This document shows positions 44,820 to 60,957 of a stretch of 64,000 bases of DNA, in pieces (the stretch's first letter is position 1; each line of letters begins with the position of its first letter). The stretch comes from Octopus vulgaris (Eukaryota): contig OX597838.1 of the NCBI GenBank assembly GCA_951406725.2, forward strand, positions 13,206,001 to 13,270,000, in the 5' to 3' direction. Position numbers and translations under genes: made by a program. The notes under the pieces were generated by a model that ran no database searches, had not been told where the DNA came from, and saw nothing but the letters and a program-made list of their open reading frames with translations.

Positions 44820-45100
44820 TTATTTTGAAAGAATTTGAACAATTGTCAGTATTGGCAATAGAAAGAGAAGTGGTGTTGGACTTTTGGTGACAGACGAAGG
44901 GGACGCAGAACAATGAGTGTTGGAATTAGTGTGCTTTCTTGTGCAGGAAGAATATCCCATGACCACTGCAAGGTAGTTTTGCTCTTTGACTCCGCTGATC
45001 AGATGAGACATCGGTCCTCGGGCGTAAGCAACGACGTCCTTCCCGCCATGGGTTTCATCGGCCAGAGGAACGGCACTTTGTTGTAGGTATTTTTTCAAAG
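44820..45100 (-). CDS. ALPL: Alkaline phosphatase terminal exon B (distal, duplicated), with GPI-signal-like tail
   Basis: gtctag|CT acceptor in phase 1; TLKKYLQQSAVPLADETHGGKDVVAYARGPMSHLISGVKEQNY...YSSC...LLFLLPILTIVQILSK*. Confidence 0.85.
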
Positions 45101-45261
45101 CTAGACGATTTAAAGAGAAAAAAGAAAAGCGAAAATTAATTAATAAATAAAAACATATAAATTATTTAACACTCATCTACACCCCTCACACACACACATA
45201 CATACATACATACATATATACATACATACACACAAACATACGTACATATATACCTACATAC

Positions 45262-45488
45262 AGCGAGCTGGCAGAAACGTTAGCACGCCGGGCGAAATGC
45301 GTGGCCGTATTTCGTCTGCCGTTACGTTCTGAGTTCAAATTCCGCCGAGATCGACTTTGCCTTTCATCCGTTCGGGGTCGATAAATTAAGTACCAGTTGC
45401 GCACTGGGGTCGATATAATCGACTTAATCCCTTTGTATGTCCTTGTTTGTCCTCTCTGTGTTTAGCCCCTTGTGGGTAGTAAAGAAAT
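45262..45488 (+). mobile_element. SINE B
   Basis: Family match; TSD TATATACCTACATAC. Confidence 0.85.
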
Positions 45489-46699
45489 ATATATACCTAC
45501 ATACATATATACATACATATATACATACATACATATATACATACATACATACACACAAACATACATATATACATACATACATACATACATACATACATAT
45601 ATACATACATACATATATACATACATACATACATACATACATACATACATACATACATACATACATACATACATACATACATACATACATATATACATAC
45701 ATACATATATACATACATACATACATATATACATACATACATACATACATATATACATACATACATACATACATACATACATACATACATACATACATAC
45801 ATACATACATGCATACATACATACATACACATATTTATATATACTTATAATTTGCTTGTTGAAAGAATTAATCTTAATAGATTTAAAAGCATGCTAGACC
45901 ATGCATCATGCTCGGTTTACAATAATCTGCTCGGCGAGATCAAATCCTTTAAAAATATAAAGAGAAAATATAAAGAAAAATATAAAGAGAAAACTTGCTT
46001 GTGTCCCTGGATGCATAACAGACATTGGGGATCTTTTCCTTTTGAAGGCCAGATTTCAACACAATTTCTAGTTAACTAAACACTTTAAAACTTCGTATAC
46101 TGGTAGAATGTGTCAAAAGAAAACATTATTTTCACTTGGCTTTCTTGATAAATTTGTAATTCGTTTGTTTAACGTAGTTTGATTTTTCGAATTTTAACCA
46201 ATGAATCGTCTCTATTTGAGCTGAAATCATTTGCTGCGTCTAAAAACTGAGACAACATCTAGCGTGTCGGAAAGGAAGAGAGGGAGAAAGAGAGGGGGGG
46301 GGTTGAAAAAATGAGAGAAAGGAAAAGATCCGAAATTGGTTAGCTCATTTCCATCTTTTCTTGTTTTATTTATTAACGATGGACCTTGGAGGGGATTTTT
46401 GGTCTCCTGCAGTAGGTATACGCTGGAGGATTTGCCTGGACTGTAAATGTCAATTTTCACTCGTGATTGCAAGTCGACATGCTACTCGAAATGCTTTAAC
46501 ACTTTTCAAGTCACCATATAACGCCTGATACTATATGTCCACACTATCTGATACGTCTCATCTTGGCGGATAGGCTGTGTGTCAAGGGATCAACGTCTTT
46601 ATCGCATATTGTAGCCTCGTAGCAATAAATAAAGAATTTTGAATGTCTTAATTCCAATATCCCAGAATGAATGAGACAAATAATATACGGAAATGGACT

Positions 46700-47160
46700 C
46701 GTTTGCTACTTTCAGAAATCATATTGAAACTCCGACGTTTGGCAGCTGACTTGGCAGACACCCATAAAATTATTAACCATCGTACAAACAATAACTCTGA
46801 GCACCTTTTCAAACTCCACCCATCTAACACCCGTGGACATGTTTACAAAGTCAGAAAACAGCACAACTCCCATGACTTCAGGAAACATTTTTTCACGCTG
46901 AGAGTTGCTGAAGCGTGGAACAAACTGCCAGCATCAGTTGTTAGTTGTCGGAGCACTGCATCCTTCAAAACTTCCATGCTTCCTGAGATTCGCCAACACT
47001 ACACTTGATTTTCTCCCCTCCATACACACACAAGTATGTATCTGACTCATACATTGTTCGCTTTCCAGACATTTCTACATTACTGCATGTACTTTATATG
47101 CACTTTCTGACAAGTTGTGGTGCACCTGAGCACTGTATACAATTAATTTCATTATTATTA
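46700..47160 (+). mobile_element. CR1-type LINE 3' fragment
   Basis: RRLAADL..HKII...TRGH...[17 protein letters not shown] plus (ATT)n tail. Confidence 0.85.
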
Positions 47161-47382
47161 TTTTTTTTTTATATATAAAAAAAAAACTAGAAATATTCGC
47201 TGCGACTCTGCGTTGATGAAATTTTTCAGATTTTAACTTCTCAACGTAAACTTCTTAACAGTAAAAGGGAGAGAGGGTTATCTTGTATGCACGTCAACAA
47301 ATATGTATTTAAAAATTACAGTTAAATTAAAAGTTACTAAAATTATAAATATATAATTATAAGGCATTAAAAAATTTATATA

Positions 47383-47757
47383 CTCTTTACTCTTTTACTT
47401 GTTTCAGTCATTTGACTGCGGCCATGCTGGAGCACCGCCTTTAATCGAGCAACTCGACCCCGGGACTTATTCTTTGTAAGCCCAGTACTTATTCCATCGG
47501 TCTCTTTTGCCGAACCGCTAAGTAACGGGGACATTGTCAAGCAATGCTATGGGGACAAACACAGACACACAAACATATACATATACATATATACGACAGG
47601 CTTCTTTCAGTTTCCGTCTACCAAATCCACTCACAAGGCTTTGGTCGGCCCGGGGCTATAGTAGAAGACACTTGCCCAAGGTGCCACGCAGTGGGACTGA
47701 ACCCGGAACCATGTGGTTGGCAAACAAGCTACTTACCACACGACTACTCCTGCGCCT
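47383..47757 (-). mobile_element. SINE A
   Basis: Family match. Confidence 0.9.
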
Positions 47758-58168: not shown

Positions 58169-59870
58169 ATAACAGGAAATAAATGTAATGAGGATAACTC
58201 TGAAAACATAGAATACAAGGACAGCTCTATTAGTAAGGAAACAGGTAACGCTTCTAAAAATAAAATTTTCGATTGCGCCAAAGGAAAACGATGTGCATTA
58301 AATTCTCTCTGTAGAGAAAATTTCTCACTACATTTATATTTTCCACTCCTACTGAGCTCTCTACACATTCTGACTGAATCTTCCATGCGTTAACAGGTAC
58401 CTCCTTACGACAATTTAATCAAGATATCCTTGGCCTGAAAAGTAGCCTGCAGTATACACCTCACTTGGATATTTAACACTTCCGAGGTTCCGCTCGCTAT
58501 GGAACATATGTAGCCCGGATCTTATTCTACTCCATTCCGTAACTCTTGTATATATATATATATATATATATATATATATATATATATATATATATATAAA
58601 GATCCAGGAATCAAGGTGTAGGAAGAAAGTTAGCTTCAAGCAATCCGTAGTACAGGGGCAATAGTGGTTTATTGAGACGGAAGGTTGCGGATTTTTTCGT
58701 ATCTAAATACAATAAACAGAAAAAAGTTCTTTTTATATTTCACGATAGGTGACCGAGGTTGCCTCGTATGCGAATAAGAAAACATGTGTTAAGTAATGGA
58801 GTTGATATCATTTAATCAAGATATCCTTGGCCTGAAGATTAGCTTGCGGTAGACACCTCACTTGGATATTTAACACTTCCAAGATTCTGTTCGCTATGAA
58901 ACATATGTAGCCCGGATCTTATCTACTCTAATCCTTAACTCTTGTCTGTTTGTGTGTATGTATGTGTATATATATATATATATATATATATATATATATA
59001 TATATATATATATATATATATATATGTCGCCATGATAGATCGTTAGCCACTACACACATCTTTTTCTCTCCTTGTTTTTTTCTGTGTCCCTTTCTGTAGA
59101 AGAGCGTAGGCTCGAAACGTAAAAGACTTTTTCTATTCCTGAGCGTTATACTAAGACATTTGTTTGTTTTGTACACCACCTGTCTTCGTCTTTTGTTTTT
59201 TTCGTAAACTCTCCCTATGTATATATATATATTTATATATATATATATATGTGTGTGTGTGTGTGTGTGTATATATATATATATATATATACACACACAC
59301 ACACACATACATACATACATACATACATACATACATACATACATACATACATACATACATACATATATACATACATACATACATACGTATGTATGCATGC
59401 GTATGTAAGCATATGTGTGTCTCTAGTGTATTTTCCTTTAGGCTTCTGGTGTAAAACGGTCAATCAAGGTGCCTCACTTTTCGTCAAAATACCTTACCCA
59501 TTCGATAAGTAGGAACTGATAAAATGTATACCAGATTGAAATAAGTAGTCATCGACTTAATAGAACAAAATCTTCAAGGCACGAAATTCCAGCATGGCGT
59601 CAGGACCGGTAAAAGAAATATAGGAAATGGGTAGAAGTGTGGACAAACATCTCAAAAGTAGAGACCCCTCTCATTGTGTGTGTGTATGTGTGTGTGTGTG
59701 CGCACACACACACACATATATATATATACAGATATACGCCCATATATATATATATATATATATATATTCAAATGAATATGGTACTTAATTTAGATGCACC
59801 AGAATATATCTACCCTCTCTATAATGCTGCCACTTGATTTGAAAATTTTTGTATTAATGGAAAACCTCTA

Positions 59871-59963
59871 TAATTGGCTGATGAGTACTCAGCATCTTAA
59901 ATCTGTTGTAATACTTACAACATTTAATAAAATGATGTAGTACGAAACGATCGTACCAAATTA
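59871..59963 (+). ncRNA. Type I hammerhead ribozyme (Penelope/retrozyme-like)
   Basis: ttgg-CTGATGA-gtact[long hairpin]agtac-GAAAC-gatc-GTA-ccaa; complete core with palindromic stem III. Confidence 0.75.
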
Positions 59964-60264
59964 CCGGAGTCATTCTTGTTGCTTATTTTGAGTATATATA
60001 TATATATATATATATATATATATATATATATATATATATATATATATATATATATACGTTATATAATTAGGGTTCAGTAAAATAATTTACTTTACCACAC
60101 ACTGAACTTTTAGAAATAGCAGCCAAAGCGGGATGAATGCAAAGCCTCATTCGTACTTTTTGAATTCGTTGGTACTGACGGTCAAAGATGGTTTGTCTGG
60201 GATTACTCATATCAGACGGGTATGTTCGATTTTTAGTGCTCTCAAATCCAAATCTAAGAAATCT

Positions 60265-60326
60265 TTGAGCTGACGAAGGAAATATTGATCTTTAAATTCA
60301 ACTAATCTAGAAACGTACGTTCTCAA
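60265..60326 (+). ncRNA. Degenerate hammerhead ribozyme
   Basis: ttgag-CTGACGA-...-GAAAC-gtac-GTT-ctcaa; stem II imperfect. Confidence 0.5.
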
Positions 60327-60834
60327 GTAATCTTAATGTACATGTGATCTTTTGTTATTTTTCCCTCCATACCTGCGTGAATTATTTTTGAGCTTACATT
60401 GTCTAGGAGATTTTTCTTATAGTAGAAGAAATAGCTAAGATTTTTTGGCTGCTATTTCTAAAAGTTCAGTGTGTGGTAAAGTAAATTATTTTACTGAACC
60501 CTAATTATATAACGTAATGTTTTAAATATACCTTAAATGGTCCTCTTACATACTGAACACTACTTGGTAAAATTAATTTATAATTAATTGATTTTACCCT
60601 TTTATTATTGATATATATATATATATATATATATATATATATATATATATATATATATATATATATATATATACAGGCATATGTATGTATATAAAGAATG
60701 AGGAGTGTCCGTTTACTTTTCAGATGTCTGTGTATATATTCTTTGAGTGAAATCGTTTTCAGCAATATTCTGGAAGTTTAAAGTATCGAGGAAAAAATTG
60801 ATAAATAAGAAAAAGGAAGTTTAAAGTTACATAC

Positions 60835-60957
60835 TTGTGTCCACATTTGTAAGGTTTGCACGTTGAGGTGTATAGCCTGGACCGTTGCCATACACTAGAA
60901 CCGTCATTGGCATGTCATCTGTCGGACCTTTATTTACAGGATCGCGCGGCACTTTAT
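60835..60957 (-). CDS. ALPL: Alkaline phosphatase penultimate exon
   Basis: tttaag|AT and A|gtatgt; DKVPRDPVNKGPTDDMPMTVLVYGNGPGYTPQRANLTNVDT (YGNGPG motif); ends in phase 1. Confidence 0.93.

What the first reader, a model, noticed from the sequence alone, without database searches (positions are those of the whole stretch)
44820..60957. Alkaline phosphatase with duplicated, mutually exclusive last exons that swap an active-site-entrance residue and the GPI signal
Seen: the penultimate exon ends in phase 1 (ACA A|gt). Two downstream exons 10.4 kb apart (55526-55791 and 44820-45100) both start ag|CT and complete the same Thr codon. Both are stop-free and keep YLQQ, VPL..ETHG, RGPMSH, GV.EQ, the C-terminal Cys pair and a hydrophobic tail, yet share only 27 of 53 residues over the aligned core (hand count). 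I found no other AP exons between them, and the proximal exon has its own AATAAA. Established: the His of ETH is a Zn ligand (PLAP H432 / TNAP H437), and the residue before ETH (PLAP E429 / TNAP H434) shapes kinetics and uncompetitive inhibitor selectivity. Here that residue is Arg in exon A and Asp in exon B. Inference: one gene produces two isozymes by alternative last-exon choice, where mammals use separate genes.
Basis: partly seen in the sequence, partly recalled or inferred. Interest (0 to 1): 0.85.

Follow-up and report, generated by a model that had tools for sequence, protein, structure and literature searches.

The report
One phosphatase gene, two ancient tails
An octopus alkaline phosphatase gene carries two diverged copies of its last coding exon, and RNA either keeps or skips the first copy, giving two predicted enzymes whose tail types are shared with squid and likely explain the two tissue-specific squid enzymes studied in bacterial symbiosis.

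Summary
The gene has one set of upstream exons and two intact copies of the last coding exon, A (55791-55526) and B (45100-44820). Spliced contigs in 2 of 4 runs laid (two studies) show the penultimate exon joined to B, and also A joined to B through a donor at 55462, 64 nt past A's stop. So A is a stop-carrying cassette: kept, it gives tail A and B becomes 3' UTR; skipped, it gives tail B. The proteins have exclusive tails; the exons are not exclusive in RNA. Bobtail squid EsAP1 and EsAP2 are identical for 438 residues and diverge at the same junction; EsAP2 and cuttlefish match A, EsAP1 and argonaut match B (7 of 8 informative sites). Rader 2012 had guessed splicing and found EsAP1 in gut and light organ, EsAP2 in skin, arm and white body. 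The Arg/Asp swap is octopus-specific; what holds is basic (4 of 4 A tails) versus non-basic (3 of 3 B tails). Enzyme differences and GPI anchoring are untested.

The parts
61547..61738 (-). Shared exon (GGRIDHGHH ... ADHSH, metal ligands)
   Evidence: AG/GT ends, in frame
60835..60957 (-). Shared penultimate coding exon P (crown region), ends in phase 1; its last 28 nt are joined to exon B in contigs
55526..55791 (-). Exon A coding part with stop: ETHG zinc His, Arg at the PLAP-429 position, REQVF motif, two Cys, hydrophobic tail; counterpart of the squid EsAP2 tail
55462..55525 (-). Exon A 3' UTR, 64 nt with two more in-frame stops, ending at the used donor TTG|gtgtgt; makes A a 330-nt cassette spliced onto B
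   Evidence: loose end mapped; contig length 388 = 28+330+30; stops
55415..55420 (-). AATAAA downstream of the A donor; possible proximal poly(A) signal, use not shown
44820..45100 (-). Exon B: coding last exon when A is skipped (Asp at the PLAP-429 position, KEQNY, two Cys, hydrophobic tail; counterpart of the EsAP1 tail); 3' UTR when A is kept

Best explanation
One octopus alkaline phosphatase gene holds two tandem copies of its last coding exon and is spliced in two ways, keeping the stop-carrying copy A or skipping it to copy B, which is predicted to give two enzymes with the same body and different last 88-93 residues, a split that likely predates the separation of octopuses and squids. 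How it works: after exon P the spliceosome takes the acceptor at 55791 or the one at 45100 (shown for 45100; for 55791 inferred from an exact contig length). If A is taken, translation stops in A and the RNA runs on from a donor 64 nt past the stop into B, which is then untranslated (junction shown). The swapped piece holds a zinc-binding His, the residue at the active-site entrance, the last Cys pair and a GPI-like tail, so tissue-specific splicing likely tunes substrate access, inhibitor sensitivity and anchoring (inferred). By analogy with squid, B would be the gut and microbe-facing form and A the skin, arm and blood-forming-tissue form (inferred, not tested in octopus).
For: Single set of upstream exons, intact GT-AG chain, 406 codons without a stop, catalytic motifs present. 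Both junctions at the B acceptor in X1 and X5, two studies; contig depths 93.9 and 55.3 (skip) against 54.1 and 31.3 (keep). Joints lie at exact splice sites and the genome searches show no processed copy. EsAP1 and EsAP2 are identical over 438 residues and part at the same junction. Window A matches EsAP2 at 33 of 49 and EsAP1 at 25; window B matches EsAP1 at 33 and EsAP2 at 27. Quartet sites: 7 by exon type, 1 by species, 0 crossed, p 0.003. A clade 99/96 among 32 tails; A|B split 95/96 among 7. Squid tissue pattern from PMC3569863. Role of position 429 from PMC3933536 and PMC3392958.
Against: 2 of 4 runs laid nothing. The P-to-A junction was not displayed. AU tests do not reject octopod-only grouping of the tails at 0.05 (p 0.096; p 0.052), and EsAP1 is unresolved in the 32-row tree. 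No B tail was found for cuttlefish (0 of 8 cluster members) and no A tail for argonaut (1 protein only). A stop 64 nt before a junction fits the vertebrate rule for nonsense-mediated decay (recalled). Position 429 is highly variable: 17 different residues among 113 homologues. Squid light-organ activity, assigned to the B-type EsAP1 (Phe at 429), is levamisole-sensitive and soluble, against a simple one-residue inhibitor rule and against obligate anchoring. No octopus tissue or protein data.
Confidence: 0.75

Rival explanations
1. One reading: A mostly ends at its own poly(A) site as a classic alternative last exon, and the A-to-B splice is a side route.
For: AATAAA at 55420. A short read-through branch of about 60 nt could be clipped by the assembler (inference). 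Homologous terminal exons with separate poly(A) sites are a known type (PMC3228551).
Against: In X1 a single unbroken 388-nt contig runs from P through all of A into B, and X5 shows the same A-B joint. No contig evidence of the proximal end was obtained.
Confidence: 0.12
2. Keeping A is unproductive: A acts as a poison exon that sends the RNA to decay and so sets the level of the B enzyme.
For: A's stop lies 64 nt upstream of the A-B junction, past the 50-55 nt threshold known from vertebrates (recalled).
Against: A keeps the zinc His, Cys pair and hydrophobic tail and is 32-33 of 49 identical to squid and cuttlefish tails; all 8 members of the cuttlefish cluster are A-type; esap2 is highly expressed in squid skin, arm and white body; the keep form holds about 36% of the summed contig depth in both runs (a rough measure).
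Confidence: 0.05
3. Octopods and squids duplicated the last exon independently and the tail types converged.
For: AU p 0.096 and 0.052; only 50-56 columns; an oyster shows a separate, recent-looking pair of last exons, so the event can recur.
Against: 7 of 8 informative sites follow exon type; the A signature (I+16, V+24, L/I+30 from the zinc His) is rare elsewhere: I at +16 in 0 of 109 non-cephalopod homologues, and none of 140 anchored representative hits has more than 4 of 8 A-type residues.
Confidence: 0.06
4. B belongs to a second, tandem gene whose upstream exons were lost from the assembly.
For: None found beyond the general possibility of collapse in a repeat-rich genome.
Against: No N in the window; no further exons; B is joined to this gene's own P exon and to A; squid isoforms are identical upstream.
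Confidence: 0.02

Closest known systems
Euprymna scolopes EsAP1 / EsAP2 (AER46069, AER46070; Rader et al. 2012, PMC3569863)
   Same: Same gene lineage (66% identity over the shared body, against at most 60% for non-cephalopods); same point of divergence; same two tail types.
   Different: Known only as two cDNAs 'possibly' from alternative splicing; the word exon does not occur in that paper. Here the genomic cause (tandem exon copy), the cassette route with B as 3' UTR, and conservation in an octopus are shown. Residue 429 is H/F in squid, R/D here.
Vertebrate ALP isozymes (TNAP, IAP, PLAP)
   Same: Same fold family and motifs; isozymes differ at position 429 (E in PLAP, S in IAP, H434 in TNAP) with effects on zinc stability, substrate entry and inhibitors; a gut form and a widely expressed form.
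   Different: Separate genes that arose in vertebrate genome duplications (PMC3469785). Here only the last 88-93 residues differ and the rest is shared.
Arthropod muscle myosin Mhc, differentially included penultimate exon (PMC2257972, PMC3228551)
   Same: A stop-bearing exon is kept or skipped and so sets the C-terminus.
   Different: That exon codes 1-13 unconserved residues; here it is a full homologous copy of the last exon with active-site residues.
Insect serpin-1 duplicated reactive-loop exons (PMC10513286; Jiang 1994, 1996 seen as titles in its reference list) and homologous terminal exons such as human capping protein beta (PMC3228551)
   Same: A duplicated C-terminal exon that carries the specificity part gives several proteins from one gene.
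   Different: Serpin exons are described as mutually exclusive and number many; here there are two, and one RNA form holds both.

Membership tests
Metazoan alkaline phosphatase (PF00245) | Catalytic Ser and metal-ligand motifs in one open frame | tested here: met
   GDGMG, PDSA, HATPA, VEGGRIDHGHH, ADHSH in the 406-codon body; ETHG in both tails; Pfam cut-off passed by both exons
Metazoan alkaline phosphatase (PF00245) | N-terminal signal peptide | tested here: inconclusive
   No convincing first exon in about 23 kb upstream of exon 2; squid orthologues have one
Metazoan alkaline phosphatase (PF00245) | C-terminal GPI signal | tested here: inconclusive
   Best 13-residue hydropathy 2.76 (A) and 2.59 (B) after small residues; no GPI predictor run; squid activity was soluble
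Metazoan alkaline phosphatase (PF00245) | Dimeric enzyme active at alkaline pH | not testable with these tools
   Needs an assay; squid light-organ extracts peak at pH 8
Mutually exclusive exons (definition in PMC3228551) | [quoted passage not shown] | tested here: not met
   A joined to B in X1 and X5
Mutually exclusive exons (definition in PMC3228551) | Homologous neighbours with similar length, same frame and splice phase | tested here: met
   88 and 93 codons, both phase 1, 25 of 49 identical
Alternative last exons with separate poly(A) sites | Proximal exon ends at its own poly(A) site | tested here: inconclusive
   AATAAA at 55420; no read data over exon A's 3' end were obtained
Stop-bearing cassette (differentially included penultimate) exon | Both inclusion and skipping joints exist, and the included exon holds the stop | tested here: met
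EsAP1/EsAP2 two-tail system | Same body, divergence at the same junction, tails sort by type across species | tested here: met
   AU tests borderline (p 0.052, 0.096)
EsAP1/EsAP2 two-tail system | Tissue-specific use (gut and symbiont tissue versus skin, arm, white body) | not testable with these tools
   Runs are coded, tissues not given

The most novel reading that the evidence does not exclude
Coleoid cephalopods evolved the equivalent of the vertebrate intestinal versus tissue-nonspecific phosphatase split inside one gene: an exon copy older than the octopus-squid split gives a microbe-facing B enzyme (non-basic active-site entrance, lost Glu three residues after the zinc His) for gut and symbiotic organs and a TNAP-like A enzyme (basic entrance) for other tissues, so that a splicing switch, not a second gene, sets how host tissues disarm bacterial lipid A.
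Probability: 0.3. Interest if true: 0.75.

Novelty: new variant of a known kind. Interest (0 to 1): 0.55.

Why it matters
It supplies the likely genomic basis for two squid enzymes used in the squid-Vibrio model, whose origin was left as 'possibly alternative splicing' in 2012, and indicates that the arrangement is shared by octopods and decapods (split about 270 million years ago, recalled). It makes a clean test possible: two natural enzymes that differ only in the last 88-93 residues, including a zinc ligand and the active-site entrance. It also carries a practical warning: if squids splice as this octopus does, primers or read counts on exon B measure both forms, and gene-level RNA counts hide the switch. 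The public gene model for this locus (P0002, 195 aa) omits A and cuts B short.

Tried and rejected
No RNA holder is listed on record for exon B; RNA origin is inferred from the spliced joints. X12 and X16 laid nothing and the body of exon B was not covered in X1 or X5 (the tool says a filter drops records): no evidence either way. No read data over exon A were obtained, so the P-A joint and proximal poly(A) use stay open. Protein search with exon A found 0 of 132 candidates; the 50%-cluster search gave no clear A-type tail among 140 anchored of 148 new hits. Isoform clusters of 10 other mollusc ALPs showed one pair with alternative last exons (oyster), none of A/B type. The paralogue at C25 9.0 Mb has one last exon in 47 kb, and its tail is 20-25 of 49 identical to all A and B tails, so it is not the source of either. 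Read-through from A into B (330 nt, in frame) rejected: three stops. Signal-peptide exon not found. dN/dS across species not possible: no relative's DNA; A versus B is near saturation (13 of 24 shared residues use another codon). Papers: no follow-up on EsAP1/EsAP2 among the 20 listed of 47; none on an ALP alternative last exon among 15 listed of 822 or among; no mollusc NMD rule in 12 listed of 38; no hit for dimer-interface mutations, so that idea is dropped. Earlier findings of this scan: none. No fold or complex was predicted: a dimer would pass by likeness to solved ALPs.
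Full report
Locus. The window is G000:C25:13206001-13270000 of a 2.8 Gb genome. A public partial protein, P0002, is labelled Octopus vulgaris, lies on a contig of the same length and matches the window's exons at 100%, so I take the genome to be that species. 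PF00245 gives 14 matches in two clusters on C25, near 9.0 Mb and 13.25-13.29 Mb; the tool warns that counts are lower bounds. A profile from 148 homologues over 108 kb finds 8 upstream exons once and the last exon twice; the paralogue region has 9 hits with one last exon. The eight shared exons join by AG/GT ends into 406 codons without a stop, with all five catalytic motifs checked, and leave one base that A or B completes as Thr. The first (signal peptide) exon was not found.

RNA evidence. Twenty of 24 listed runs hold exon B, none on record as RNA. I laid 4 of them on exon B; 2 laid nothing. X1 and X5, from different studies, each gave two contigs at the B acceptor. One is 58 nt long and its loose end is the last 28 nt of exon P (60835 onward). 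The other has a loose end that maps to 55463-55482, in exon A's 3' UTR, next to a GT donor at 55462. In X1 it is 388 nt, exactly 28 of P + 330 of A + 30 of B; in X5 it is 360 nt, 330 + 30. The joints are at splice sites 15.7 kb and 10.4 kb apart in the genome and no processed copy turned up, so the contigs come from spliced RNA. The P-A joint itself is inferred from the length, not displayed. Contig depths are 93.9 and 55.3 for skipping, 54.1 and 31.3 for keeping A, about 36% in both; the tool calls depth a poor measure of expression. A is therefore a cassette exon with its own stop, 64 nt before the donor, followed by two more stops. Whether some RNA also ends at the AATAAA at 55420 is open.

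Conservation. The closest full proteins are from argonaut (70% over the shared body), a cuttlefish cluster and Euprymna (66-67%); the best other mollusc has 60%. Euprymna EsAP1 and EsAP2 are identical for 438 residues and diverge right after ...VDT, the same junction. EsAP2 and all 8 cuttlefish-cluster proteins carry the A signature (HIFxGVREQVF.P); EsAP1 and argonaut carry the B signature (HL..GVKEQN). Window A is 33 of 49 identical to EsAP2 and 25 to EsAP1; window B is 33 to EsAP1, 27 to EsAP2 and 37 to argonaut; A and B share 25. Of 8 informative sites in the quartet, 7 sort by exon type and 1 by species (p 0.003 against one third). Trees: the four A tails form a clade at 99/96 among 32 tails, with B unresolved apart from window B plus argonaut (24 outgroup rows chosen by hand from 119 other hits); among the 7 cephalopod tails the A|B split has 95/96. 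AU tests against octopod-only grouping are borderline, p 0.096 and 0.052. B is closer to the general ALP tail at most diagnostic columns, so A looks like the more derived copy; B tails have their own change, loss of the Glu three places after the zinc His (K, D, M against E in 103 of 109 homologues).

What the swap changes. Alignment to PLAP places B's Asp on E429 and the His of ETH on H432; that H432 binds zinc is recalled, and Rader lists the matching squid His as a metal ligand. PMC3933536 (passages) ties E429 to zinc affinity, stability and entry of charged substrates; PMC3392958 (passages) ties TNAP R433/H434 to levamisole binding. Across cephalopods the position is R, H, R, R in A tails and D, F, Y in B tails. 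Basic residues are rare there: 3 of 109 non-cephalopod homologues. So the conserved contrast is basic versus non-basic on a small sample (three lineages each at most), not Arg versus Asp. Both tails end in a hydrophobic stretch after small residues, as GPI signals do (no predictor run).

What is known. Rader et al. 2012 (PMC3569863; first two of six parts read plus passages; supplement not read) report two EsAP cDNAs identical up to position 1386, 'possibly as a result of alternative splicing'; esap1 in gut and light-organ core, esap2 in skin, arm and white body; light-organ activity soluble, levamisole-sensitive and needed for normal colonisation. A 2025 paper (PMC12773714, passages) finds ALP raised in symbiotic organs and does not mention isoforms. 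Vertebrate Alpl and Alpi are separate genes (PMC3469785, passages). Stop-bearing cassette exons and homologous terminal exons are known types (PMC3228551, PMC2257972, passages), as are duplicated specificity exons in serpins (PMC10513286, abstract and passages). My searches (listings only, open-access library only) showed no paper giving the exon structure or the octopus case.

Mechanism and odds. Shown: two intact exon copies; P-B and A-B joints; tails of both types in a squid. Inferred: P-A joint, a single duplication before the octopod-decapod split, two functional proteins, tissue-specific use in octopus, different kinetics and anchoring. I put the whole account at 0.75; that two tail types are made from one gene is much firmer than the functional part. 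Against a simple story: position 429 varies widely in the family, the B-type squid enzyme appears levamisole-sensitive without the His, and the stop-to-junction distance could invite decay.

Verdict. A real, conserved arrangement; new variant of a known kind. Interest 0.55.

Noticed in passing
P0024 / P0138 (Saccostrea echinata isoforms X2, X1): An oyster ALP isoform pair identical for 444 residues and then ending in two near-identical last exons, one without the hydrophobic tail: a recent, separate last-exon duplication or an annotation artefact.
   Followed up: partly
window 44964-45100 and 41628-41696 (-): The public model P0002 skips A, leaves B early and adds a 23-residue exon at 41696-41628, losing the Cys pair and hydrophobic tail; probably a misprediction.
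   Followed up: partly
G000:C25:9004000-9015600 (L007, L008): Second ALP gene 4.2 Mb away, same strand and exon pattern, one last exon with YSSH in place of ETH and a long branch in the tail tree.
   Followed up: partly
window 26611-28206 (+): Last exons of a multi-LIM protein (three LIM matches, paxillin-like by recall), converging on the ALP gene.
   Followed up: no
window 42115-42399 (+), 37920-38240 (-): hAT transposase remnant and a zinc-knuckle ORF downstream of exon B.
   Followed up: no
window 44810-44824 (-): Exon B's stop overlaps an AATAAA and runs into a genomic A tract, a risk of internal priming in 3' end data.
   Followed up: no
window 55462-55791 (-): The A cassette is 330 nt, a multiple of three, so B stays in frame behind three stops; likely chance.
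   Followed up: yes
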